Below, one piece after another: positions 16,285 through 43,546 of a stretch of 64,000 bases of DNA. This stretch comes from a virus (lineage: Duplodnaviria; Caudoviricetes), in IMG/VR virus record IMGVR_UViG_3300042013_000103; one strand, written 5' to 3'. Positions within the stretch are counted from its first letter, which is position 1, and every line of letters begins with the position of its first letter. The notes under the pieces were generated by a model. It saw only the letters and a list, made by a program, of their open reading frames with translations. It made no database searches and was not told the origin of the DNA. A program made the position numbers and the translations under genes.

Positions 16285-17625
16285 TTACACCGCGATTGGG
16301 TAATCGATGTGGGGGAGGGACCCGTAGTCGCGAATGTCGAAATCTTCGAGTTTGAAATCGGTGATCTCGGTGACCGACGGGTTGAGGTACAGCACGGTGG
16401 TTTCTTCCAGCGGTTCACGTGCCAGTTGTTCTTTCACTTTATCCACTTGGTCGAGGTAGATGTGGCTATCGCCGGTGCAGTGGATGAACTCTTTCGGTTC
16501 CAGGTTGCCCACCACTTGGGCCAGCATCATGGTGAGCGTCGAATACCAGGCGATGTTATACGGCACGCCGACTGGGTAGTCTGCTGAACGCTGCGTGAGC
16601 ATACACGAAATCCAACGGGTTGGAATGCCATGGTTGGTGGCGTAGTCGTGTAGCATCTGGGCCGCTTTGGTAGAAGGATGACAGTGTGGATTCGCCAGCA
16701 TTTCGCGCCATGGGGTTAACATACCAGGGAAAGCCCCGGTGGTGTCGAAGTCACGGTCCATCCATTCGCTGAACAGGTTCCAGTGTCCGCCCTTACCGAA
16801 TTTCAGGGCCTCTACCAAGTCTTTGACCGATTTGTCGGTGATGTCGAACTGGAAGAATGCATGGCACGGCGGCAATGCCATGTCATCCAGCATGCCTGGG
16901 TTCCAGGCCGTGATGATGTGGCGACGGCTGTCAGGGTTGGTGCGCAGCGAGTTCACCAGCTCGGACAGCTGATCGGTGTTGCGGTACAGCACCACTTCAC
17001 CCGGGGTGTTGGCTTCGCCGACAATAGCAAACCCTTTACCCAACCACTTCTGGCAGTCCGCAGAATCCCGGGCCACAATCTTGAAGGTGTCCCAGTAACG
17101 GTACTGGTGACCATACACGGCACCAAGTTCACCGTCCATCAAGACTTCAGTGCGCACGCCCCGAATGTCCATCCAGTCGATAATGGCTTGGACGTCTTTG
17201 GGTTTGCACCAGAGCTTACCGTATTGCACGGTGGTGGCGTCTTGGTAAGTCTTGTGCAAACGGTGGGCGAAATGTTTGTTCCATTCGTCCAGGTGTTCCA
17301 TGGCGTCTTTCTGTACAAACTGAACGCGCTCGTCCCATGAATAAGTGCGGTAGACTTCGGTGCCTTTCTTGACCCACTTGTTCCAGAAGGTCACACCGCG
17401 GTCAATCAACCCTTTCAGGTGCGTGTCGCCGGTCAGGTACCACAGGCCTTCACGGACCGCATGCAACAACGGAATGTACCGCGTGGTCACCGCCGGGAGG
17501 TTGTTGCGTTTCAGGTTATACCGGGTTTGCATCCCGAACGTCGAGATCGTGCCGGTACCGGTACGGTCACCTTTGACGGAACCGTTGTCCAGAATGTATT
17601 GCAACGCTGCAAGATATTGTTTCAT
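16285..17625 (-). CDS. thyA: thymidylate synthase with large insertions
   Basis: GDRTGTGT, ELGAVYGHQYR, DSRRHIITAWNP, catalytic LPPCH, QRSADYPVGVPYN, GDSHIY. Confidence 0.95.
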   Translation of the reverse strand: MKQYLAALQYILDNGSVKGDRTGTGTISTFGMQTRYNLKRNNLPAVTTRYIPLLHAVREGLWYLTGDTHLKGLIDRGVTFWNKWVKKGTEVYRTYSWDERVQFVQKDAMEHLDEWNKHFAHRLHKTYQDATTVQYGKLWCKPKDVQAIIDWMDIRGVRTEVLMDGELGAVYGHQYRYWDTFKIVARDSADCQKWLGKGFAIVGEANTPGEVVLYRNTDQLSELVNSLRTNPDSRRHIITAWNPGMLDDMALPPCHAFFQFDITDKSVKDLVEALKFGKGGHWNLFSEWMDRDFDTTGAFPGMLTPWREMLANPHCHPSTKAAQMLHDYATNHGIPTRWISCMLTQRSADYPVGVPYNIAWYSTLTMMLAQVVGNLEPKEFIHCTGDSHIYLDQVDKVKEQLAREPLEETTVLYLNPSVTEITDFKLEDFDIRDYGSLPHIDYPIAV

Positions 17626-26838: not shown

Positions 26839-26869
26839 GTAATATAGTTCTTTATCTGGGTTAAATGCA
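26839..26869 (-). promoter_or_regulatory. early promoter
   Basis: TGCATTTAA-N12-ACTATATTAC. Confidence 0.8.
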
Positions 26870-26886
26870 AAAAGAAAAGGCATAAG

Positions 26887-26906
26887 CCCTCCCCCGAAGG
26901 AGAGGG
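26887..26906 (-). terminator. intrinsic terminator, UUCG loop
   Basis: ccctcccc-cgaa-ggagaggg followed by a T-tract. Confidence 0.75.
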
Positions 26907-26913
26907 GTTATGG

Positions 26914-28140
26914 TTAACCGAGGTGGAACGGGTGCACTGAGATGTAGCGCCACTTCCACCCTTCGTAGTCCTTCAGGGCTTGGCAGAACAGGTGCTGTTG
27001 ATTGATGCCACGCATCGCAATGAACATGCCGTACGGAAGTTCTTCGGCTGACTCTTCCATGGCCCAGCTGTAGTTGATGTACTCACTCATGCGGGTGACT
27101 TTGAACAGCTTCAATTTACGCCCGACCGTTTTGTACGCCGCGATAATGGCCTTGCGTTCCGCCGGGTCGGTCACATCCCGCAGTTCAATGGCAAACGCCA
27201 TCATCCACTCCAGCATGTCGGACTGGTCTTGGTTCAACTGCTGTCGCTTGCGGTCCGCCCGTGTGGCAGTCAGCGACAACCCCACCAGCTGGTGTTCGAG
27301 CTCCGGCACACGGTTAGGGTCAATGGGTTGGAATGCCTGAGGGTAGCTACCCAACACGTCCATGTTCGTGATGTGGTCGTGCAGCGTTTCGCCGAACAAC
27401 AGGTTAGGTTGGGCAACAGCCCCTTCCGGGAGGATACCCAATTCAGAACTGAAGCCAAACACCGCACGGTCGATCTGCTCAGGCGTTAACGCGTCCTTGA
27501 ACATCTTGACCAAGGCATCGGCGTCGTCGGTGGAATCCAGCAGCAACGGCAAAGAATCGCCCTTAGCATCGCGTAGGTCATCCATCGTGGCACCACTGAG
27601 CCATTCTCGTCCGGCGGGTAAGTCTACCCACATCCCCGGGCTCTCCCCCACCAGTTGCGTAGGGATTTGTGTCTCGGCATGGCGTGCTTGACTTTCTTCA
27701 GACATTAGTTTGATCCAATTGCGTTTAGACATGGGTTCGTGTAAAATGTTAGAGCCGTGACACAAAGGACCAGGGGGCATGGGAACACAGAAGTCTTTCT
27801 CCCCGCTCTTTTTCACCCAGCGCCATTGGATCTCGTTACAGTCCAGATAGGAGCAGTTACTGACCGTACCGGTGATTACCCCGTGGCGAACGTCGATGAC
27901 TTCGCCGAGGTCGGCGAGATCCCGTTTAACCATGAGGTACTCCTCCTCCTGGGTTTCGCTGAACAAGCAACCCCACTCCTCCGTGACGTGCAAGGGTCCG
28001 AAACGGATGTAGTGAGGTTCGTAAAAACCATTTTTGTGACGCAGTACCGCATACGACACCACTTCCCCGGGCGCAGGGAAATTCTCAAGGTCATACCAAA
28101 ACGCTGAATCGGGGGGTGACCACAGTTTAGTGGGGGACAT
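26914..28140 (-). CDS. hypothetical protein, last gene of the EI-array operon
   Basis: 408 aa ORF; TAATG overlap with the last array ORF. Confidence 0.8.
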   Translation of the reverse strand: MSPTKLWSPPDSAFWYDLENFPAPGEVVSYAVLRHKNGFYEPHYIRFGPLHVTEEWGCLFSETQEEEYLMVKRDLADLGEVIDVRHGVITGTVSNCSYLDCNEIQWRWVKKSGEKDFCVPMPPGPLCHGSNILHEPMSKRNWIKLMSEESQARHAETQIPTQLVGESPGMWVDLPAGREWLSGATMDDLRDAKGDSLPLLLDSTDDADALVKMFKDALTPEQIDRAVFGFSSELGILPEGAVAQPNLLFGETLHDHITNMDVLGSYPQAFQPIDPNRVPELEHQLVGLSLTATRADRKRQQLNQDQSDMLEWMMAFAIELRDVTDPAERKAIIAAYKTVGRKLKLFKVTRMSEYINYSWAMEESAEELPYGMFIAMRGINQQHLFCQALKDYEGWKWRYISVHPFHLG

Positions 28141-28382
28141 TAGTCACTTCCTATTTCATGCTGCGCTTTGCGGTTAATGAGGACCCTGGATGCCATACGT
28201 CCAACGTACGTGGGTTGTGTATGAACGACCGAAGGGTCAATCGTTGTCCCCGGTACCCGGGCGGCTTTGAAGGCTTGGCGATCCTGCAACAATTGCCGCG
28301 CGTAGTCTGCTAGCCCTTTGGCCATCACTGTACCGGCGCGCTGCATGTATTCGTCAGAATTAGCCACGATTTCATGGCTCAT
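28140..28382 (-). CDS. EI-array microprotein (MSHEIVA...HEIGSD), 80 aa
   Basis: ORF track plus shared motifs. Confidence 0.75.
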   Translation of the reverse strand: MSHEIVANSDEYMQRAGTVMAKGLADYARQLLQDRQAFKAARVPGTTIDPSVVHTQPTYVGRMASRVLINRKAQHEIGSD

Positions 28383-28683
28383 CGATGCCCCCTATTTCAT
28401 TCAGGTGCGGAGCGGAGCCGTATTGCCTAAACGTTTGGGTAGAACCCTCAGGGTCACCGATCTCCGGCTTCAATGTGAGCCGTCCTTGAGCGACGGCAAA
28501 AAGGTCCACGAACTGACGTAACCCACCGGAATTAGGTACGGCGTCGGGTATCTCCCTGCTCCCGGGCGGTTGCATGCTGAACCCGGCGTGTTTACCGGAC
28601 ATCAGGCTTTGTTCTCTCCGGAAAGGAATCGCCCCGTGGGCGGAATCGATGTTGTTGGAATCCGGTACTATCTCATGACTCAT
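28372..28683 (-). CDS. EI-array microprotein (MSHEIVP...NEIGGIDEP), 103 aa
   Basis: ORF track; GAGGA SD; internal REIP and PEIG. Confidence 0.75.
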   Translation of the reverse strand: MSHEIVPDSNNIDSAHGAIPFRREQSLMSGKHAGFSMQPPGSREIPDAVPNSGGLRQFVDLFAVAQGRLTLKPEIGDPEGSTQTFRQYGSAPHLNEIGGIDEP

Positions 28684-28754
28684 TGGAAGGTCCTCTTGGT
28701 AATGATGCGGTGATATAGTTGTTTATTCAGATGGAACGCAAGCGGGAATTTCAT
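28680..28754 (-). CDS. possible 24 aa linker peptide MKFPLAFHLNKQLYHRIITKRTFQ
   Basis: starts at an ATGAAAT junction with GGAG SD; ends in an ATGA overlap with 28683. Confidence 0.35.
   Translation of the reverse strand: MKFPLAFHLNKQLYHRIITKRTFQ
28710..28740 (-). promoter_or_regulatory. early promoter inside the EI array
   Basis: TGCGTTCCA-N12-ACTATATCAC. Confidence 0.65.
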
Positions 28755-28902
28755 TGGTCTCCGGACCGGACCTGGTGAGGTATTGCATCCAGCGTTCCAT
28801 AAACTCGGTTTCGGCTTTACTGACTTTGACTTGATAAGTGATCACCAAGTCCGGCACGGGTTCACGCACAACCGTCTCACCAATCTCAGCTGCCAATTTC
28901 AT
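28723..28902 (-). CDS. EI-array microprotein (MKLAAEIG...NEIPACVPSE), 59 aa, not in track
   Basis: translated by hand. Confidence 0.7.
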   Translation of the reverse strand: MKLAAEIGETVVREPVPDLVITYQVKVSKAETEFMERWMQYLTRSGPETNEIPACVPSE

Positions 28903-29071
28903 GCTGTTCTTTCCCGGTAGGAAATATGGTGAATTCTTCCGGCCTCCATTTGAGGCTGGGTTTATGCAGATGGGCGCTTAAATCCATTATGCCAAAAGAG
29001 ATGGACATGGGTTCGGTACTGGAACTAAAATTCTCCCGGTCAGCGGGGACGATCTCTTGGTCAGATTTCAT
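28886..29071 (-). CDS. EI-array microprotein (MKSDQEIV...HEIGS), 61 aa
   Basis: ORF track plus motifs. Confidence 0.75.
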   Translation of the reverse strand: MKSDQEIVPADRENFSSSTEPMSISFGIMDLSAHLHKPSLKWRPEEFTIFPTGKEQHEIGS

Positions 29072-29342
29072 TGCGAGGTTTCACCATAGCGCCGTATATC
29101 CAGAAATTGCCTTCGGCGTCGATGTCGCCATCAAAGTCCAGCGCCATACCGCCCACCCCGTAGGCGGCGCATAGGTTGGGCAGGGTCCCGTTAACGCCGA
29201 TTTCGGTGGCCAATGGCTTACGTGAAGTGCGCCCCACTATTTGGAGGTTGCTTACGTCGTCAGGCGTATAGGACATGGACCCAAACGACAGGACATCAAA
29301 TTCATCCGAAGGGTGATCCCCGATCTCACCATTAGATTTCAT
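29061..29342 (-). CDS. EI-array microprotein (MKSNGEIG...NEI), 93 aa
   Basis: ORF track plus motifs; internal TEIG. Confidence 0.75.
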   Translation of the reverse strand: MKSNGEIGDHPSDEFDVLSFGSMSYTPDDVSNLQIVGRTSRKPLATEIGVNGTLPNLCAAYGVGGMALDFDGDIDAEGNFWIYGAMVKPRNEI

Positions 29343-29544
29343 TGTCTGTCCCCTTGACCAACCGACGCATCCAGTCCGCGCTATGCAGTTTCAGTTTAGG
29401 CGAACACAAAACAAAATCCAACCCACTGGGGTTGTTGTGGAAGGTTTCGCAATCCTTACTGGATATGTCGGAAATGCCGTTAAACCGCACACGCGGTGCA
29501 CAGTTCCCAACGGGGGACCCACCGATTTCCTGGTCAGATTTCAT
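29332..29544 (-). CDS. EI-array microprotein (MKSDQEIG...NEI), 70 aa
   Basis: start placed at the junction ATG. Confidence 0.75.
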   Translation of the reverse strand: MKSDQEIGGSPVGNCAPRVRFNGISDISSKDCETFHNNPSGLDFVLCSPKLKLHSADWMRRLVKGTDNEI

Positions 29545-29722
29545 TGCCATCTTGTTTCTCCTTGGTCGTGGCGACTAGGACAGATTCGGAATAATACCGC
29601 CCCACACCGCCGCGTGACATGACAACGCCATTTTCGTCAAACATCAAAAACCCAGGCTGCCATGAAGGTGCCGGGTTTTCAGGCGTACCAATTTCCCGGG
29701 GTTGGCCCTTACTGGATTTCAT
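29534..29722 (-). CDS. EI-array microprotein (MKSSKGQPREIG...NEI), 62 aa
   Basis: start placed at the junction ATG 29722. Confidence 0.75.
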   Translation of the reverse strand: MKSSKGQPREIGTPENPAPSWQPGFLMFDENGVVMSRGGVGRYYSESVLVATTKEKQDGNEI

Positions 29723-29942
29723 TGGAGTCCACCAGCAACGCGTCCATGGGGTGGTTCGGTCGGTGAGTGTGAGCAAAAACCATACCGAGCTCACCGCGGC
29801 GGAGTCCACCCGACAAGGCGCGGTTCAGAAAACTCGCCCCAGCCGGCATGCGGGCATTAAGGTCCGGTGATGGCGAGCTGACCAAAGCAATCAGTTCGGA
29901 CATGCCATCAGATGCGCTACCGATTTCAGTATTAGATTTCAT
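29709..29942 (-). CDS. EI-array microprotein (MKSNTEIG...NEIQ), 77 aa, with a DnaB-like segment
   Basis: contains FLNRALSGGLRRGELGMVFA. Confidence 0.75.
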   Translation of the reverse strand: MKSNTEIGSASDGMSELIALVSSPSPDLNARMPAGASFLNRALSGGLRRGELGMVFAHTHRPNHPMDALLVDSNEIQ

Positions 29943-30099
29943 GGGGGTCCTCTTTCCGCTTCACGGGTTTGTGGTTGGAGTTCAGCTCTAACAAAGCAAA
30001 TAACTTGACAATAGCCGGACTGACATTACGGGGCCGGGTCCAACTGGGTTGCCACTCTGGTTCGCTTTGGGAGTCACCTATTTCACGATCCGATTTCAT
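29932..30099 (-). CDS. EI-array microprotein (MKSDREIG...HEI), 55 aa, not in track
   Basis: translated by hand. Confidence 0.7.
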   Translation of the reverse strand: MKSDREIGDSQSEPEWQPSWTRPRNVSPAIVKLFALLELNSNHKPVKRKEDPHEI

Positions 30100-30283
30100 T
30101 CGTGGGCTTCCCTAACGTATTTTGGTAATACTTCGTCTTCAAACCCAAACCCTTAGTTAGCAGGTTACTTAAGAGGTCTTTATAATAGATGTCCTTCAAT
30201 TGATCATCCAGACGTACCTGCAGCGCAAATAGGTTATCCAGATGCGGTGGCGGAGGGTCACCAATCTCGTTGTCAGATTTCAT
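30083..30283 (-). CDS. EI-array microprotein (MKSDNEIG...NEIGS), 66 aa
   Basis: ORF track plus motifs. Confidence 0.75.
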   Translation of the reverse strand: MKSDNEIGDPPPPHLDNLFALQVRLDDQLKDIYYKDLLSNLLTKGLGLKTKYYQNTLGKPTNEIGS

Positions 30284-30461
30284 TTTCAGTCACCGGGCGA
30301 GGCGGAAACATGACACTGCGTGATGGCGTGGTCATGAAGTAGGGTGGCTGAAAGACCGCATCCGCCCACAAACGTTCCCGTTCCACGGCATCCTGCATAA
30401 CCTCGGAAAATGTCTTGGGGGGAGGCGGTTGGACTGAAGGAATTTCGTTATCCGATTTCAT
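30273..30461 (-). CDS. EI-array microprotein (MKSDNEIP...NEI), 62 aa
   Basis: ORF track plus motifs. Confidence 0.75.
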   Translation of the reverse strand: MKSDNEIPSVQPPPPKTFSEVMQDAVERERLWADAVFQPPYFMTTPSRSVMFPPRPVTENEI

Positions 30462-30660
30462 TCTGTTCCAACCCTTTAAGGTTATACGAAAGTAGTTTCA
30501 TTGGCCTAGTCCACCGTTGGAAGTAGTCCACCCCAGAACAGTCAGAGAGCGTTTTAGATTTCAGCCGCGCGGACATTTCTTCTTGGACCAGTTGTTGGTA
30601 ACGGTCTGTCAGTTCCTCGACACTTAGGTTGTCCGAAGGAATCTCGCAATTAGATTTCAT
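30448..30660 (-). CDS. EI-array microprotein (MKSNCEIP...NEIG), 70 aa
   Basis: start placed at the junction ATG 30660. Confidence 0.75.
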   Translation of the reverse strand: MKSNCEIPSDNLSVEELTDRYQQLVQEEMSARLKSKTLSDCSGVDYFQRWTRPMKLLSYNLKGLEQNEIG

Positions 30661-30796
30661 TAGGATTCTCCCGTCGGCGACGTTTCTCAGCGGCAATGGC
30701 CAAGCGGTCTTTAAGCCACCGCTGATATCGCAGGTCGAACTCTTCCGAAGTTTCCGGACGATCCCGAGGAATCGTCGTGTGCTTAGTGGATTTCAT
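30650..30796 (-). CDS. EI-array microprotein (MKSTKHTTIP...NEI), 48 aa, not in track
   Basis: translated by hand. Confidence 0.7.
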   Translation of the reverse strand: MKSTKHTTIPRDRPETSEEFDLRYQRWLKDRLAIAAEKRRRRENPNEI

Positions 30797-30953
30797 TTTG
30801 ATCCCCCGTGGGTTCCCACCCTTTCCAGCTCTCCATATGGGCAGCGATGCATTGCCTCGTAAATTCCGCGAGTTTCAGCGTGTTTTCATCCACCGTCGGA
30901 ACTCGATTGGGTGGAATCTCCAACAACGGTTTAGTTTTGTTTGAAGTGTCCAT
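30783..30953 (-). CDS. first EI-array microprotein (MDTSNKTKPLLEIP...NEIH), 56 aa, not in track
   Basis: translated by hand. Confidence 0.65.
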   Translation of the reverse strand: MDTSNKTKPLLEIPPNRVPTVDENTLKLAEFTRQCIAAHMESWKGWEPTGDQNEIH

Positions 30954-30956
30954 GAA

Positions 30957-31133
30957 TTAACCCAGTGTATTGAGAATAATCTGTGGTTCTTCCAGTGGTT
31001 GAAGGGTGGTGCATTTCCACCAGTCATGGATTTCTTTGGTGTGGTCTACTGACTGCAAGCCCGTCGCGCGCCCAGCCCGTTTCCGGGCAGTCTTATGAAT
31101 TCCTTGGTACAACCGCAATACTCCGCGCTTCAT
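30957..31133 (-). CDS. small basic hypothetical protein, 58 aa, not in track
   Basis: AAGGA SD plus ATG; fills the gap between genes. Confidence 0.45.
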   Translation of the reverse strand: MKRGVLRLYQGIHKTARKRAGRATGLQSVDHTKEIHDWWKCTTLQPLEEPQIILNTLG

Positions 31134-31142
31134 TGCTTGTCC

Positions 31143-31604
31143 TTAATAGAGGTGTTCCGAAAAGAGTTCTTTGGTGCTGCGACCCTCTTCTAATAAAGGA
31201 CGCCCTTGCCACTTACACAAGTCCATGGCTTCCCGCCGTCCCCAGAACCCACCGTACTGGTCGATGAACCCCTGTTGATAACCGGACTCGTTGTTTTCTT
31301 CTGGGTCATCATCGGCATTGGCATACGCATTCAAGGCATCAATACCCACGAGGTTGATCATCGACCACATCGGTACGCTGTAATGGCGGGTACCCGTGAT
31401 AATAAAATCTTTGTAACGGTTGGCCGCACAGACGATTACTAACGTCACGTTGAACTTGTCCCATCGCCAACCAGTGAACCCGTCTTCGTCGGTTTCGATC
31501 CAACACCGTTCCATGTATAGCGCCCGAGATGCAGCTGCCGCTTCGGCAATGATTTGCAAACGGGTTTCCAAAGGAATGCTCTTTACAGTAGGCAACTCAA
31601 ACAT
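31143..31604 (-). CDS. conserved-type phage hypothetical protein
   Basis: IITGTRHY...QQGFIDQYGGFWGRREA, a pattern recalled from many phage proteins. Confidence 0.7.
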   Translation of the reverse strand: MFELPTVKSIPLETRLQIIAEAAAASRALYMERCWIETDEDGFTGWRWDKFNVTLVIVCAANRYKDFIITGTRHYSVPMWSMINLVGIDALNAYANADDDPEENNESGYQQGFIDQYGGFWGRREAMDLCKWQGRPLLEEGRSTKELFSEHLY

Positions 31605-31794: not shown

Positions 31795-31820
31795 GTAATA
31801 TATTCCCAAAAATAAATGCA
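31795..31820 (-). promoter_or_regulatory. early promoter upstream of the EI-array operon
   Basis: TGCATTTAT...ATATATTAC. Confidence 0.65.
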
Positions 31821-31826
31821 ACATAA

Positions 31827-31846
31827 GCCTCCCCCGAAGGAGAGGC
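31827..31846 (-). terminator. intrinsic terminator, UUCG loop
   Basis: gcctcccc-cgaa-ggagaggc. Confidence 0.7.
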
Positions 31847-31856
31847 CATTATGCCG

Positions 31857-32018
31857 TTACAGCTGCTGCAGCTCTTGGTGGATAAGCTGGCGTGCTTGGG
31901 TGCGTTCCACCCCATGAGTCAGCTTCTTGGTGATCCGTCCAGGACTGGCGCAGGAGATCCCGCGCTTACCCCAGTACTCGAACCCACCTGCCTTTCCACC
32001 GCGAATCGAACGTGCCAT
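31857..32018 (-). CDS. small basic protein MARSIRGGKAGGFEYWGKRG..., 53 aa, not in track
   Basis: translated by hand; AGGGG SD. Confidence 0.6.
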   Translation of the reverse strand: MARSIRGGKAGGFEYWGKRGISCASPGRITKKLTHGVERTQARQLIHQELQQL

Positions 32019-32778: not shown

Positions 32779-33071
32779 GGATGTGTCACCTCGATGGGGT
32801 TGTCCAGGTGTAGCTGGATGTGTCGATCGCTCCAACCCAGGGCTTTGAGGCGCCGGGTTTCAGTGGCGGTGTTGATGCGGCTCAACAGGACTTTGTCCGC
32901 GTCATCGTAAACACCCTTCTTGCTCAACAGATACGCCACGTCCGCCACTGTGGGTTCGTTGTTCGGGTTGGGGTCTATGCGCGTATGTAGTGCTTGGCGC
33001 CATTCCTCTTCCGTCCCTTTGAACTTACATTGCACTGCGGCTTCATAAGCCGACTTGCCGACATCGGTCAT
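32775..33071 (-). CDS. hypothetical protein
   Basis: ATGA overlap at 33071. Confidence 0.6.
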   Translation of the reverse strand: MTDVGKSAYEAAVQCKFKGTEEEWRQALHTRIDPNPNNEPTVADVAYLLSKKGVYDDADKVLLSRINTATETRRLKALGWSDRHIQLHLDNPIEVTHP

Positions 33072-33368
33072 AAGTAGAAACTCCTGTCGTCTTTCGGACG
33101 GTCCCGATACGGCAACCAGCTGGACGGTACGTTGTGAGGGAAATGGCGCATGTGCGAGATCTCGTGGGAGCGTACGTAGAACCCACATTCGGTCTGTCGG
33201 TCCTCGTGTGTCACCACATACGCCATGTGCCCTCCGACAGTGCGGGTTTTATGTGCTTCCTTGATGATCAACTTGTCGCCGAACCAACAAAACACCCCGC
33301 CCGGTGAATGGTCATTGGGTCCTTCCGCGATTAGGCGAATGGCGTAGACCGTGTCTTTCACTTGGAAA

Positions 33369-33382
<14 letters not shown>
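33068..33382 (-). CDS. small beta-rich hypothetical protein (FGDKLII motif)
   Basis: 104 aa ORF. Confidence 0.6.
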
Positions 33383-40518: not shown

Positions 40519-41832
40519 TTAGCTAGCGAAACCAAAAGCGGCTTTCTTGTTCTGGATCGGTTCCGGACGGAAGTTGATCACTTCGGCCAAGGTCACGTCG
40601 TTGGTCGCGAATTCAGCCAGCTCCAGGCCCATCATGGCACGCACGTCGTTGCCCTGCTCGTACGTCATGGTGCCGAACTTCAGAATGTCGAAGCAACGAC
40701 CCGGACGCACCAAGGCTTCATCCACCGAGGCGATGGTAGGCAGGTTGGTGGAGATGATGATCTTCACGTCACGCGACACAATCCCGGCGGTGGTGTTCAG
40801 CAACGCCGACATGGCACTGTTGCCTTCGGTACGTTTCATCACGAGTTTGTCGGAGTCTTCGGTGATCATTACCGAACCCGCTTGGCAATCGCGGATGTAG
40901 TCCGACAGGCCCTGGTGCAACAGCACGTCTTCACGGTCCGCCAAGTGAATCTTCTCGTCCCAGCCACGGGCTTCCATCATCTGCAGAATGAAGTTGGATT
41001 TACCCGTACCCGGAGGACCAATCAACAACATCACATTGGCGTTAGACGCCGCGAACTCGGCCCAGACCTGCGCCGGGGATTTGTTCATGTACGGGTAGAA
41101 CCGGGTGATGTCGCTGTACTCTTTGACCGGCGGAATGGTTTCCACCACCTGGGTCAGTTCGCCTTGCGCGGTCAACCGCAGGCGGGTCAGGAACGCAGTC
41201 GGTTTGGAGTTGGCCAGTTCGTTGAAACCTTTCTCAATGTACTCGGCCAGGGCCGGCACGGCGATCAGGTCCATGCTTGACTTGGTGGCGCTCGAATCCG
41301 GAATCACCAGCGCCCCCAGGATCTGGGTTTCGTTCACGATCAGTCGACCCATCAGCGTACGGATATAACGCAGGCCGATCGGTTTCAACAGCGCGCTGTC
41401 GATCTGCGCGATCAGTGCCTTATCGTGGTCTTCCGGTTTGGCGGCATGGGGCACGTCGGACCTCAGCCCCACCATGGCTTGGTCAAACCCTTTCGATGAA
41501 AAGTAGATCCGCGACACGTCATAAATGTTATCGCCGCGCAGCAGCGCCAGGCACTGGTTCCATTTATTGATTTCTTCCAACAGTGCAGGAGTTGCGGCTT
41601 CAGGCAGAAAATTCATAGTGTTCGTTCCATTTGTGTGGGTAAAGGTAGTGTGTTCGTATTCATCTGGGCGTTTTAAATCGGGTATGTACAAACAACGAAA
41701 GCGGAAGAACCAATCGGTGGTGGTACGAATGTTGAATTCAGCTGAATCGAATACAATCGCTGGGTCCAGGGATCGGGTATCTCGGTTGTCGGTGGGGTAG
41801 TAATCCTTTTTACGGTTAATATCGTGGATCAC
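40519..41832 (-). CDS. AAA+ ATPase with an in-frame N-terminal RKK module (alternative start ATG 41616)
   Basis: GPPGTGKS, ITEDSD, STN, LVRPGRCFD. Confidence 0.9.
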   Translation of the reverse strand: MIHDINRKKDYYPTDNRDTRSLDPAIVFDSAEFNIRTTTDWFFRFRCLYIPDLKRPDEYEHTTFTHTNGTNTMNFLPEAATPALLEEINKWNQCLALLRGDNIYDVSRIYFSSKGFDQAMVGLRSDVPHAAKPEDHDKALIAQIDSALLKPIGLRYIRTLMGRLIVNETQILGALVIPDSSATKSSMDLIAVPALAEYIEKGFNELANSKPTAFLTRLRLTAQGELTQVVETIPPVKEYSDITRFYPYMNKSPAQVWAEFAASNANVMLLIGPPGTGKSNFILQMMEARGWDEKIHLADREDVLLHQGLSDYIRDCQAGSVMITEDSDKLVMKRTEGNSAMSALLNTTAGIVSRDVKIIISTNLPTIASVDEALVRPGRCFDILKFGTMTYEQGNDVRAMMGLELAEFATNDVTLAEVINFRPEPIQNKKAAFGFAS

Positions 41833-42041
41833 CAGGTTTCCCCGTACCTACGGATGGCCATCGATTCCCGATCGCCCGGCACCAGATAATCGGGTCGGTA
41901 ACATTCCAGCACAGGTCCGTGTTCAACCACCGATTGATGGATGTACCGTTCATCCCCTTTCGACGTGGGAAACATGTCTTGCCGTTGGAAGGTGATTTGT
42001 CGGTACCAGTTCAACCATTTCTTGCGATCAATCGCGTGCAT
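41829..42041 (-). CDS. RKK microprotein (MHAIDRKKWL), 70 aa
   Basis: GGAGG SD at ATG 42041. Confidence 0.75.
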   Translation of the reverse strand: MHAIDRKKWLNWYRQITFQRQDMFPTSKGDERYIHQSVVEHGPVLECYRPDYLVPGDRESMAIRRYGETW

Positions 42042-42241
42042 GGGACCTCCTGCAAGAACGTTGTATAATCCACGGGGTAAGGGCACCACCGGGGAGCAGC
42101 AGGAGCGACACCGTGCTTCTCTGGGTTTTGTGGCTTTCGACAAGGATCACCACCGTGGTTGTAATCGTGTTCCGTGCACAGGTCCTTGTTGGGGTCGTCC
42201 GAACTACGCCAGATGAACCCCTTCTTTCGGTTGTACTCCAT
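42011..42241 (-). CDS. RKK microprotein (MEYNRKKGF), 76 aa
   Basis: ORF track plus motif. Confidence 0.7.
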   Translation of the reverse strand: MEYNRKKGFIWRSSDDPNKDLCTEHDYNHGGDPCRKPQNPEKHGVAPAAPRWCPYPVDYTTFLQEVPCTRLIARNG

Positions 42242-42434
42242 GGTGCGGCCCTAGGAAAGTTTGATGGTCGTTCGGGTATCGATAGAGGTAAGGTTCAAGT
42301 CGTTGGTGTGCCCACTGCTCCGGATCACAACCGACCTGCTTCTCCTCCATGGGTTTACCCTCATGAAAACTACGCAACCCTTTATGCACCCAGAACCCCC
42401 CGAAACACCGATTCTTTTTACGACAGACGTTCAT
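42204..42434 (-). CDS. RKK microprotein (MNVCRKKNR), 76 aa
   Basis: ATGA overlap plus motif. Confidence 0.7.
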   Translation of the reverse strand: MNVCRKKNRCFGGFWVHKGLRSFHEGKPMEEKQVGCDPEQWAHQRLEPYLYRYPNDHQTFLGPHHGVQPKEGVHLA

Positions 42435-42637
42435 GGTCGATAATCCTTCTCCAGCCTAAACACGGCATTGTTGTCAGGGTAGCCCGTGGGAGTTTCTCGA
42501 AGACACCCATATTCGTCCGGATTATCATTGTCGTCGAATTCACGGGCCGTGCGGGTGCCGTAATCGCACGTACGCGTACGGCTGTCCTTCCACCGACTGT
42601 ATTTCCGGGGATGTTTCTTACGCATGGTATCCAGCAT
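42431..42637 (-). CDS. RKK microprotein (MLDTMRKKHP), 68 aa
   Basis: ORF track plus motif. Confidence 0.7.
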   Translation of the reverse strand: MLDTMRKKHPRKYSRWKDSRTRTCDYGTRTAREFDDNDNPDEYGCLRETPTGYPDNNAVFRLEKDYRP

Positions 42638-42640
42638 CGA

Positions 42641-42853
42641 CTAGGTCTCCGGAAGAAAGGTAGTCTGACAGTGGCGGTCATCCCGGCGTAACTTGGTTTC
42701 TTTGTCCTCGAGGATGACCCACTCTTCTTGGTTTTCAGCCAAGTGGCTGTTGTAGTCAGTTACATGGACGGGATCGGCGTGCAAGGTACGTTGTCCATCT
42801 TGCCTAAAGGACCGTCGGGGAAAACCTTTCTTCCGGTAGACGTCTATAATCAA
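42641..42853 (-). CDS. RKK microprotein (MIIDVYRKKGF), 70 aa
   Basis: TTG start plus motif. Confidence 0.7.
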   Translation of the reverse strand: MIIDVYRKKGFPRRSFRQDGQRTLHADPVHVTDYNSHLAENQEEWVILEDKETKLRRDDRHCQTTFLPET

Positions 42854-42856
42854 AAC

Positions 42857-43075
42857 CTATACCCCACCTTTTACTCTGGGCATGTGTCCGTCGTTGTTAT
42901 CGGGATGCATGGTAACGGTATCCAAACAATCAAACTCGATGTCAGGGTCTTCTGGTCCGGACAAATCTATCGAATGCCAATCTGACCAATTAGCCGATCT
43001 CGACATGCGTTCACCACACATCCCCAACCCAGGATTACGGTGCAATTGTTTCTTACGGGTGAGTTCATGGGACAT
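42857..43075 (-). CDS. RKK microprotein (MSHELTRKKQL), 72 aa
   Basis: start moved to ATG 43075. Confidence 0.7.
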   Translation of the reverse strand: MSHELTRKKQLHRNPGLGMCGERMSRSANWSDWHSIDLSGPEDPDIEFDCLDTVTMHPDNNDGHMPRVKGGV

Positions 43076-43106
43076 CGGTGGGCTGCCCTTCTTTCCATCC
43101 ATAACC

Positions 43107-43319
43107 TTACCTGCGGGTGATAAGACGACTTTGTCCCGTGTCCAAGGACTGGGTGTACGTTCTGTGTGCCCGACGAAAATCCGAGTTAGCCCAACCCATC
43201 TGGTCTTCCCGGGCAGTGTCGTAGAAATCACCCGTTTCCATGGCTTCCACCGAAACATGCGCGCGGCCAGGATGACGGTCCGCTTTCTTGCGCCAGAACT
43301 CTACGTCAACGCAGTTCAC
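43107..43319 (-). CDS. RKK microprotein (MNCVDVEFWRKKAD), 70 aa
   Basis: GTG 43319 after GGGA. Confidence 0.65.
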   Translation of the reverse strand: MNCVDVEFWRKKADRHPGRAHVSVEAMETGDFYDTAREDQMGWANSDFRRAHRTYTQSLDTGQSRLITRR

Positions 43320-43515: not shown

Positions 43516-43546
43516 GTAATATAGTCTTGACTTTTTCTAAAATGCG
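43516..43546 (-). promoter_or_regulatory. early promoter upstream of the RKK array
   Basis: CGCATTTTA-N12-ACTATATTAC. Confidence 0.8.

What the first reader, a model, noticed from the sequence alone, without database searches (positions are those of the whole stretch)
28140..30953. Chain of 14 overlapping microprotein genes stitched by one dual-frame ATGAAAT junction repeat
Seen: 14 consecutive minus-strand ORFs of 48-103 aa overlap end to start. At most junctions the same 22-24 nt element, SD-(A/C)ATGAAATC-N7-GA(A/G)AT(T/C)(G/C), ends the upstream ORF as (N/H)EI and starts the next as MKSxxEI(G/P/V). The element is itself an internal direct repeat (GAAAT twice, 13 nt apart, in different frames), so most peptides carry an EI motif at both ends. 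The 130-290 nt between junctions are largely unrelated. Four members are absent from the ORF track. An early promoter lies upstream (31795) and another inside (28710). Inference: a repeat-spacer cassette array with translated spacers, possibly built or shuffled by recombination at the junction. It could act as a translationally coupled library of diversified early peptides for anti-defence or host takeover. I know no named system with this layout.
Basis: partly seen in the sequence, partly recalled or inferred. Interest (0 to 1): 0.93.

Follow-up and report, generated by a model that had tools for sequence, protein, structure and literature searches.

The report
Chained microgene array in jumbo phage
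An uncultured soil jumbo phage carries an early operon of about fifteen tiny, mutually unrelated genes whose ends and starts overlap in one conserved 24-base junction; the array is real, but its function is unknown and it resembles small-gene arrays seen in other giant phages.

Summary
ATGAAATC occurs 11 times in the 2.8-kb stretch, against 1.7 expected in the whole 64-kb window. The full junction ATGAAATY-N7-GARATH occurs 9 times against 0 expected. The downstream frame is +1 wherever the junction core is used.

Each start has a Shine-Dalgarno site, and all bodies score as coding only in the annotated frame. A second metagenome holds a collinear strain about 99.6% identical over the array, with 6 synonymous and 5 non-synonymous changes. 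The bodies show no similarity to each other or to any database entry.

The chain lies between a phiKZ-type early promoter and a terminator in a new chimallivirus-like phage of 308.6 kb.

My best reading is an old, lineage-specific tandem expansion of a small early gene. Only the ribosome-binding site, the start and the N-terminal MKSxxEI(G/P) motif stay fixed, and translation is coupled.

Cassette shuffling at the junction is not supported: the strains seen are collinear. Function is unknown; host-directed early effectors are plausible. This scan has noted comparable junction-chained microgene arrays in other jumbo phages, so I class it as a new variant of a recurring kind.

The parts
31828..31843 (-). 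Terminator-like hairpin that closes the preceding transcription unit
   Evidence: The same short sequence recurs elsewhere in the genome (X1 record 4).
31795..31802 (-). Early promoter core TATATTAC (phiKZ-type, virion RNA polymerase)
   Evidence: 9 exact sites in the window against 0.25 expected, with extended consensus TTG.ATT-N16/17-ACTATATTACGT. The core is listed for phiKZ and 201phi2-1 in PMC7058600 Table 2. The same core sits at the head of the syntenic operon in relatives.
31143..31604 (-). First gene of the operon, T4_Y16D / Arn.3-like (PF26092, phrog_839)
30957..31133 (-). 58-aa ORF with no family
30783..30953 (-). u01, 56 aa. EIP at residues 12-14; ends DQNEIH
30650..30796 (-). u02, 48 aa. 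Starts MKS but lacks the second EI
30448..30660 (-). u03, 70 aa counted from the MKS start
30273..30461 (-). u04, 62 aa
30083..30283 (-). u05, 66 aa. AF2 gives one low-confidence helix with disordered ends
29932..30099 (-). u06, 55 aa
29709..29942 (-). u07, 77 aa. Weak, non-significant ankyrin-like and DnaB-like resemblance
29534..29722 (-). u08, 62 aa. A 4-codon in-frame insertion lies before EIG
29332..29544 (-). u09, 70 aa from MKS (72 from the upstream ATG)
29061..29342 (-). u10, 93 aa. An internal TEIG suggests two fused units
28886..29071 (-). u11, 61 aa
28723..28902 (-). u12, 59 aa. Its tail past NEI runs over the -30 element of the internal promoter-like site
28680..28754 (-). u12b, a 24-codon bridging ORF. 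It starts at a canonical junction core with an SD, and its TGA overlaps the u13 ATG (ATGA)
28710..28717 (-). Internal early-promoter-like site TATATCAC, with TTGCGTT 16 nt upstream
   Evidence: PWM score 20.0, 11th best in the window.
28372..28683 (-). u13, 103 aa. Starts MSHEIV; internal REIP and PEIGDP suggest three fused units
28140..28382 (-). u14, 80 aa. Starts MSHEIV and ends QHEIGSD; its stop overlaps the next start (TAATG)
26914..28140 (-). 408-aa orphan gene at the end of the chain
   Evidence: The only relative is a 349-aa protein of another chimallivirus-like contig, 36% identical over residues 4-145. AF2 pLDDT is 32.
26872..26895 (-). Terminator-like hairpin that ends the operon; the next early promoter follows at 26839-26846

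Best explanation
The stretch is the middle of a roughly 4.9-kb early operon of a new chimallivirus-like jumbo phage. Its layout is: promoter, Y16D-like gene, a 58-aa ORF, 15 chained small cistrons, a 408-aa orphan gene, terminator.

The small cistrons are real protein-coding genes of one lineage-specific family. I infer that the family grew by tandem duplication of a small gene together with its gene boundary.

What has stayed fixed is the boundary: an SD inside the upstream gene, ATG-AAA-TCN, and an N-terminal peptide MKS(D/N)xEI(G/P). The next gene starts 8-17 nt before the previous stop, always in the +1 frame. The previous protein is therefore forced to end in (N/H)EI, and ribosomes that terminate can re-initiate on the spot. 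This is translational coupling along the whole chain.

The bodies are short and probably consist of one helix plus disordered tails. They have diverged beyond recognition. I infer that they are early-made, host-directed small proteins that share a short N-terminal motif of unknown role.

Shown here: the anatomy, the coding frames, the SDs, the overlaps, and strain collinearity.
Inferred: early timing, coupling, origin by duplication, and function.
For: Anatomy and statistics.

SD sites: mean SD-antiSD energy is -5.9 kcal/mol at the 15 starts, against -2.5 at control positions; Mann-Whitney p = 8e-7.

Coding potential: the score is positive in the annotated frame and negative in both other frames for 14 of 15 small ORFs; u02 scores about zero (+0.02) in its +1 frame, still below its annotated frame. 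With stops excluded, scores run 0.05-0.31, against -0.27 +/- 0.29 for spurious open frames and 0.42 +/- 0.16 for real genes.

Strain variation: 11 substitutions between the two near-identical strains inside the array are 6 synonymous and 5 non-synonymous in the annotated frames. None falls in a junction core. My arithmetic gives p about 0.03 if a quarter of random changes are synonymous.

Protein-level selection on the motif: the second motif copy varies only at third codon positions (GAA/GAG, ATT/ATC/ATA, GGT/GGG/GGC). It stays in frame when its distance from the ATG changes in u01, u08, u13 and u14.

Diverged strain: its fragments keep MSHEI.PD.N and ..NEIGG while the neighbouring residues change (loose ends).

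Operon frame: promoter and terminators bracket the operon. The TATATTAC core is cited in PMC7058600.

Genomic habit: the same genome has at least one more tandem microprotein family behind an early promoter (note e1-5377144).
Against: - There is no expression data. No RNA run clearly holds the locus.
- Coding scores are lower than for ordinary genes.
- If the units share ancestry, no trace remains in the bodies at DNA or protein level. Duplication is therefore inferred only from the boundary and a few weak N-terminal extensions, such as u04/u05 and u06/u11.
- Dual coding alone does not explain conservation of EI(G/P) downstream of the overlap, and I cannot say what the motif does.
- The junction-like cores at the ends of u12, u13 and u14 persist without starting a full unit.
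- No homologue, fold or partner was found for any unit.
Confidence: 0.6

Rival explanations
1. The junction is mainly a recombination site. Whole cassettes are gained, lost, swapped or captured by exchange within the 8-24 nt core. The bodies are unrelated because they have separate origins. This is the first reader's reading, and it would work like PeSL-mediated shuffling in T4-type phages.
For: The bodies show no detectable common ancestry. The junction is the only shared DNA. u10 and u13 look like in-frame fusions at junctions. Notes from this scan report such turnover at dual-coded junctions in other jumbo phages (not checked here). PeSL precedent: PMC2839356.
Against: The two or three strains seen are collinear, with no cassette gain, loss or indel. 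Fragments of the diverged strain are orthologous to the same units. No source for any body exists elsewhere in the window or in databases. No second array with this junction was found in IMG/VR, JGI metagenomes or GTDB genomes. The core is very short for homologous exchange.
Confidence: 0.17
2. The conserved N-terminal MKSxxEI(G/P) is a shared address or processing tag on otherwise unrelated cargo proteins. It would work like the 10-residue capsid targeting sequence of the T4 internal proteins. Possible roles are targeting to the virion, the phage nucleus or a common partner, or cleavage at E|I. This reading concerns function and can coexist with the best explanation.
For: The motif is selected at protein level and kept in frame, and is also kept in the diverged strain. 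It recurs at internal unit boundaries of u10 and u13. The bodies are unrelated, as in the T4 internal proteins, which share only the CTS (PMC3012670).
Against: The operon has an early-type promoter, not a late one. P3-P1 before the putative cut do not fit the S/A/G-X-E rule of the phiKZ head protease (my knowledge of Thomas et al. 2012; residues). EI(G/P) is neither avoided nor enriched in other proteins of the window. No partner is known, and the 408-aa neighbour could not be modelled.
Confidence: 0.15
3. The junction is a recoding or fusion switch. The two GARATH hexamers lie exactly 13 nt apart, so skipping 13 nt joins neighbouring units in frame as ...NEIG.... The skip could be a ribosome hop from AUC to AUY, or a slipped-strand deletion. 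The locus would then yield both single units and fused multi-unit proteins.
For: The geometry holds at 9 of 11 split junctions. A stop follows the first Ile codon directly at 6 junctions. Take-off and landing Ile codons can be read by one tRNA at 9 of 10 junctions. u10 and u13 look like fixed fusion products.
Against: Every junction has its own SD and ATG, which makes separate initiation the simpler reading. No conserved take-off hairpin exists. One landing codon is ATA. The codon before internal EI is not N/H. About 2.6 internal EI are expected by chance and 3 are seen. No 13-nt indel separates the strains.
Confidence: 0.04
4. The ORFs are not functional proteins. The repeated element would serve the DNA or RNA, for example as a protein-binding site, or as a ribosome relay that merely keeps the long early mRNA translated up to the 408-aa gene.
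For: Coding scores are intermediate. There are no homologues. The chain is unbroken down to the 408-aa gene, including a 24-codon bridging ORF that looks like a pure connector.
Against: All 15 frames score as coding, and 14 of 15 have negative scores in both alternative frames. Strain changes lean synonymous. Variation in the motif sits at third codon positions. In-frame length changes occur in the diverged strain: 149 nt replaced by 140.
Confidence: 0.04

Closest known systems
Translationally coupled overlapping cistrons (termination-reinitiation at ATGA/TAATG-type overlaps) in phage and bacterial operons
   Same: The SD lies inside the upstream gene and the stop lies within a few nt of the next start. 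The chain covers the whole operon.
   Different: Here one identical 11-17 nt overlap with a fixed +1 offset is repeated 11-12 times. It is tied to a conserved N-terminal peptide, and the genes it joins are otherwise unrelated.
T4 internal proteins (IPI, IPII, IPIII and their polymorphic relatives) with the conserved capsid targeting sequence (PMC3012670)
   Same: A short conserved N-terminal peptide heads small proteins whose remaining sequence is unrelated. The proteins are host-directed (anti-restriction) in T4.
   Different: There is no sequence relation. Packaging and cleavage are untested. The promoter here is early-type. T4 genes are not chained by overlapping junctions.
[quoted passage not shown]
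   Same: Short conserved elements separate small ORFan genes in a variable early region of a large phage.
   Different: PeSLs are intergenic promoter-plus-terminator units. This junction is coding on both sides, has no promoter or hairpin, and shows no shuffling between the strains seen.
Junction-chained microgene arrays noted by this scan in other jumbo phages (e1-5340944, e1-5318884, e1-163366, e1-309527; AI notes, not checked here)
   Same: Rows of 7-30 tiny genes in jumbo phages are joined by a conserved stop/SD/start junction that also encodes the protein ends. They are probably early and their function is unknown.
   Different: Those arrays use other junction sequences and families, and several have recognisable paralogy or documented cassette turnover. 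This array has a different junction (NEI/MKS with a second EI 13 nt on), no detectable body paralogy, and no turnover seen.
Programmed translational bypassing (T4 gene 60; byp elements of Magnusiomyces mitochondria)
   Same: Matched codons flank a short untranslated gap with a stop right after the first one. Skipping the gap restores one frame.
   Different: The gap is only 13 nt and carries a functional-looking SD/ATG context. No take-off hairpin is present and there is no evidence of hopping.
Gene-amplification 'accordions' of counter-defence genes (T4 tifA, bioRxiv 10.1101/2022.04.14.488369; poxvirus K3L, from my own knowledge)
   Same: Tandem expansion of a small early phage gene through short homologies is a plausible origin.
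   Different: Accordion copies are near-identical and recent. Here the copies share only the boundary.

Membership tests
Translationally coupled overlapping operon | Upstream stop within a few nt of, or overlapping, the downstream start | tested here: met
   All 15 boundaries from u01 to the 408-aa gene overlap by 1-32 nt.
Translationally coupled overlapping operon | SD for the downstream gene embedded in the upstream coding sequence | tested here: met
   Mean -5.9 kcal/mol against -2.5 for controls, p = 8e-7.
Translationally coupled overlapping operon | Downstream translation depends on upstream translation | not testable with these tools
   This needs reporter or polarity experiments. Predicted RNA structure does not consistently mask the starts.
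Tandem paralogue family | Members align over their length | tested here: not met
   Only M1, E6, I7 and the C-terminal E-I are (nearly) invariant. Bodies do not differ from shuffles.
T4-type internal proteins with CTS | Conserved N-terminal tag of about 10 residues on unrelated bodies | tested here: met
   MKS(D/N)xEI(G/P) occurs in 11-13 of 14 units. The likeness is by analogy only, with no sequence relation.
T4-type internal proteins with CTS | Cleavage by the head protease and packaging into the capsid | not testable with these tools
   No proteomics is available. The residues before E do not fit S/A/G-X-E (the rule is from my own knowledge).
T4-type internal proteins with CTS | Expression compatible with head assembly | tested here: inconclusive
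   Only early-type promoter motifs are seen.
PeSL modular shuffling | Repeat unit made of a promoter plus a terminator stem-loop between genes | tested here: not met
   No promoter or terminator lies at the junctions, and the junction is coding in two frames.
PeSL modular shuffling | Insertions, deletions or replacements between relatives with break points at the repeat | tested here: not met
   The X2 major strain is collinear with no indel. Fragments of the minor strain are collinear. Sampling is thin.
Programmed translational bypass | Matched take-off and landing codons with a stop after take-off | tested here: inconclusive
   The codons are identical at 5 of 10 junctions and readable by the same tRNA at 9 of 10. 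The stop is adjacent at 6.
Programmed translational bypass | Take-off stem-loop and no independent initiation signal in the gap | tested here: not met
   No conserved hairpin exists. An SD plus ATG is present at each junction.
CRISPR-like repeat-spacer array | Non-coding identical repeats, short spacers of foreign origin, and cas genes | tested here: not met
   The repeats are gene boundaries and the 'spacers' score as coding. There are no cas families among the neighbours and no Rfam hit.

The most novel reading that the evidence does not exclude
The array is a two-state library. The 13-nt spacing of the two GARATH hexamers lets units be made either singly or joined in frame, by ribosome hopping or by frequent +/-13-nt slippage. 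One early operon would then yield a combinatorial set of EI(G/P)-tagged effector proteins delivered to a common partner. The fused units in u10 and u13 would be frozen examples.
Probability: 0.06. Interest if true: 0.9.

Novelty: new variant of a known kind. Interest (0 to 1): 0.5.

Why it matters
Nucleus-forming jumbo phages make many tiny early proteins, and almost none has a known role. A chain of fifteen unrelated microproteins that share one short N-terminal motif and are translated as a coupled relay gives a compact, testable panel. If they act on host functions or defences, the shared motif points to a common route or partner. The fast-changing bodies would then mark an arms race. The locus also shows cleanly how a gene boundary can be the only conserved part of a gene family. 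That matters for annotation, because such genes are often missed, and for ideas on how phages create new small genes. If similar arrays in other jumbo phages are confirmed, this would be a general feature of their early regions.

Tried and rejected
Similar DNA in GenBank phages: none.
tblastn of u05 and of the 408-aa protein against phages: none.

Family searches for the units:
- PHROG and Pfam gave nothing significant.
- The ESM Atlas gave nothing usable for u10 or the 408-aa protein.
- Word-indexed homologue search of u14 and of the 408-aa protein found only themselves.

Exhaustive HMMER search of the 408-aa protein gave one distant relative. Its contig has no array.

Syntenic regions next to the Y16D gene in Psa21 and four metagenomic relatives have no array and no motif.

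Motif scans found only satellites, plain tandem duplications or single chance hits:
- IMG/VR, three patterns
- JGI metagenomes, one pattern
- GTDB genomes, one pattern
.

Structure prediction:
- AF2 of the 408-aa protein gave pLDDT 32, so no fold search was run.
- AF2 of u05 with the 14-unit alignment gave pLDDT 59 and a single helix.

Origin of the units:
- Derivation from the 104-aa/90-aa family that carries (N/H)EIS, from the 408-aa N-terminus, from orf58 or from Y16D is not above chance.
- No paralogues or source fragments lie elsewhere in the window.

Other checks:
- A conserved RNA hairpin at the junction was not found, and there is no Rfam family.
- u07 as a captured DnaB fragment (note e1-5377134): only phrog_19 at E = 0.18. 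An alternative ankyrin-like match has an E-value inflated by repeats. Neither is significant.
- The late-promoter reading of (A/C)ATG was rejected. The junctions do not carry the TATG motif (my recollection of Ceyssens et al. 2014), and the SD context explains them.
- No complex prediction was run, because no binding claim is made.

Full report
**What the window is.**
Long genes in the window match chimallivirus (phiKZ-like) families. These include an NAD-dependent ligase, thymidylate synthase and kinase, an SNF2-type helicase and virion structural proteins. The closest isolates are Pseudomonas phages 201phi2-1, Phabio and D6, at only 31-37% protein identity for a virion protein. The array DNA matches no GenBank phage record. 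Its proteins are on record from a 308,580-bp contig. Two rhizosphere metagenomes from different studies hold the stretch. It is therefore an uncultured soil jumbo phage, and its host is not established.

**The observation.**
ATGAAATC occurs 14 times in 64 kb, against 1.72 expected. Eleven of the hits lie on the minus strand between 28368 and 30796. The full element ATGAAATY-N7-GARATH occurs 9 times, all in the array, against 0.00 expected.

Aligned junctions are conserved only at:
- an SD-like G..G.A at -11 to -6;
- A at -1;
- ATGAAATC;
- GA.AT at +15 to +19.

All 31 EI dipeptides in the 964 residues sit at unit boundaries. Other proteins of the window have EI exactly as often as composition predicts, 48 against 48.3. 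After the junction parts are removed, the bodies are no more alike than shuffled sequences, at DNA level or at protein level in any frame pair. No copies or source fragments of the bodies lie elsewhere in the window.

**Additions and corrections.**
u12 and u13 do not overlap. A 24-codon ORF (28680-28754) starts at a canonical junction core inside u12 and has an SD. It ends with a TGA that overlaps the ATG of u13. The result is an unbroken chain of 15 small cistrons plus the 408-aa gene, with every boundary overlapping by 1-32 nt. Wherever the junction core is used, the downstream frame is +1.

Given that offset, ATG-AAA-TCN forces the upstream protein to end in (N/H)EI. The C-terminal motif is therefore a by-product of the overlap, or the reverse.

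At the ends of u13 and u14 the core reads ATGAAATAG. That is a two-codon dead end, and it is followed directly by the SD of the next gene.

**Are they genes?**
- The score is positive in the annotated frame for all 15 small ORFs and negative in both other frames for 14 of them (u02: about zero in +1).
- With stop codons excluded, the scores (0.05-0.31) lie between spurious open frames (-0.27 +/- 0.29) and real 60-codon chunks (0.42 +/- 0.16).
- SD-antiSD pairing upstream of the 15 starts is much stronger than at control positions, -5.9 against -2.5 kcal/mol, p = 8e-7.
- Run X2 holds a collinear strain with no indel. Its 11 substitutions inside the array are 6 synonymous and 5 non-synonymous, and none falls in a junction core.
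- The same run holds low-depth fragments of a more diverged strain. These are collinear over u11 to the u13 start, 81-92% identical where alignable. One 70-nt patch has the same length but is diverged, and a 149-nt patch is replaced by 140 nt, a difference that keeps the frame.
- Loose ends of these contigs, read in the unit frames, give orthologous but much-changed peptides. MSHEI.PD.N is kept at the start of u13 and ..NEIGG at its end, with most residues between replaced.

**Level of selection on the motif.**
The second copy varies at third codon positions only (GAA/GAG; ATT/ATC/ATA; GGT/GGG/GGC, CCT/CCC). It stays in frame when its distance from the ATG changes: residues 4-5 in u13 and u14, 6-7 in most units, 10-11 in u08 and 12-13 in u01. 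This points to a peptide motif EI(G/P/V), not an RNA or DNA site. The predicted RNA structure at the junctions is not conserved.

**Transcription context.**
TATATTAC is the core listed for phiKZ and 201phi2-1 early promoters (PMC7058600). It occurs 9 times in the window against 0.25 expected. The extended consensus is TTG.ATT-N16/17-ACTATATTACGT.

- One site (31795-31802) follows a terminator hairpin (31828-31843) and heads the operon.
- The next site (26839-26846) follows a hairpin at 26872-26895, just after the 408-aa gene.
- A weaker site (TATATCAC, 28710-28717) lies between u12 and u13, with the same spacing to a TTGCGTT element.
- The same core heads the syntenic operon in relatives.

Early timing is inferred from these motifs only.

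**Relatives.**
The first gene of the operon is a T4_Y16D/Arn.3-like protein. Its closest relatives are 60-66% identical. They occur in Psa21 and in metagenomic jumbo phages whose operons hold no array and no junction motif.

The 408-aa protein has one distant relative, 36% identical over residues 4-145. That relative sits in the early operon of another chimallivirus-like contig, again without an array.

Pattern scans of IMG/VR, JGI metagenomes and GTDB genomes returned only satellites or chance hits. No unit has a family, a homologue or a confident fold.

**Interpretation.**
The most economical reading is an old, lineage-specific tandem expansion of a small early gene together with its boundary. 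Purifying selection then acted on the boundary (SD, start, AAA second codon, N-terminal motif), while the short bodies diverged very fast. Translation is probably coupled along the chain.

The same genome has at least one further tandem microprotein family behind an early promoter. Notes from this scan describe comparable junction-chained microgene arrays in other jumbo phages (not checked here). The layout therefore looks like a recurring habit of giant phages.

The shuffling idea is not supported by the few strains available. A shared-tag function, like the T4 capsid targeting sequence (PMC3012670), is attractive but untested.

The 13-nt geometry would allow in-frame fusion, and it may explain the internal EIG/EIP of u10 and u13. 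However, about 2.6 internal EI are expected by chance. Independent SD/ATG signals also make programmed hopping unlikely.

**Verdict.**
The locus is a new variant of a known kind, and its function is unknown. Interest is moderate.

Noticed in passing
window 41617-43319 (-): A second tandem family of about eight microproteins of roughly 70 codons, with an N-terminal xxxxRKK motif, lies behind the early promoter at 43516-43523. The last unit runs into the AAA ATPase gene (40519-41832). One member starts MSHEL, like the MSHEI start of u13 and u14.
   Followed up: partly
window 29709-29942 (-), u07: Residues 9-46 resemble one ankyrin repeat; the PDB E-value of 4.5e-6 is inflated by repeated targets, and the per-repeat match is not significant. 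The same stretch gives phrog_19 (DnaB-like) at E = 0.18. The 'captured helicase fragment' idea is not supported.
   Followed up: partly
L040 9754-11050; window 33068-33382 (-): In another chimallivirus-like contig, the homologue of the 408-aa gene directly follows a 90-aa gene. That gene's homologue in the window (104 aa, 45% identity) lies upstream of the operon. Both carry a conserved (N/H)EIS(R/H)M.HF near the C-terminus. In L040 the codons happen to spell AATGAAATC in frame with the downstream gene. No unit is significantly similar to this family, so this is probably coincidence.
   Followed up: partly
window 28388-28401 and 28150-28160 (-): At the ends of u13 and u14 the junction core reads ATGAAATAG, a start-Lys-stop mini-ORF, followed at once by the SD (GGGGG, GGAAG) of the next gene. 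This may be a decayed junction reused as a ribosome-binding region.
   Followed up: no
window 28681-28700 (-): The 20-nt SD-to-ATG region of u13 (ACCAAGAGGACCTTCCAATG) is identical to a site on another contig of the same phage sample (run X1, record 4). The terminator regions at 26879-26906 and 31833-31858 are shared in the same way.
   Followed up: no
window 16285-17625 (-): The thymidylate synthase is 446 aa, and the Pfam match is split into two stretches. This suggests a large insertion inside the enzyme.
   Followed up: no
window 28236-28582: A wastewater run labelled as metagenomic RNA-Seq (X3) holds two 150-nt contigs on u14 (9 differences) and u13 (0 differences), and nothing else of the array. 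It cannot be told whether this is RNA.
   Followed up: no
window, 9 sites (2101, 4072, 5254, 8416, 19695, 26846, 31802, 43523, 59807): The early-promoter cores share an extended consensus TTG.ATT-N16/17-ACTATATTACGT...TG, often just after a terminator hairpin. Eight of the nine are on the minus strand.
   Followed up: partly
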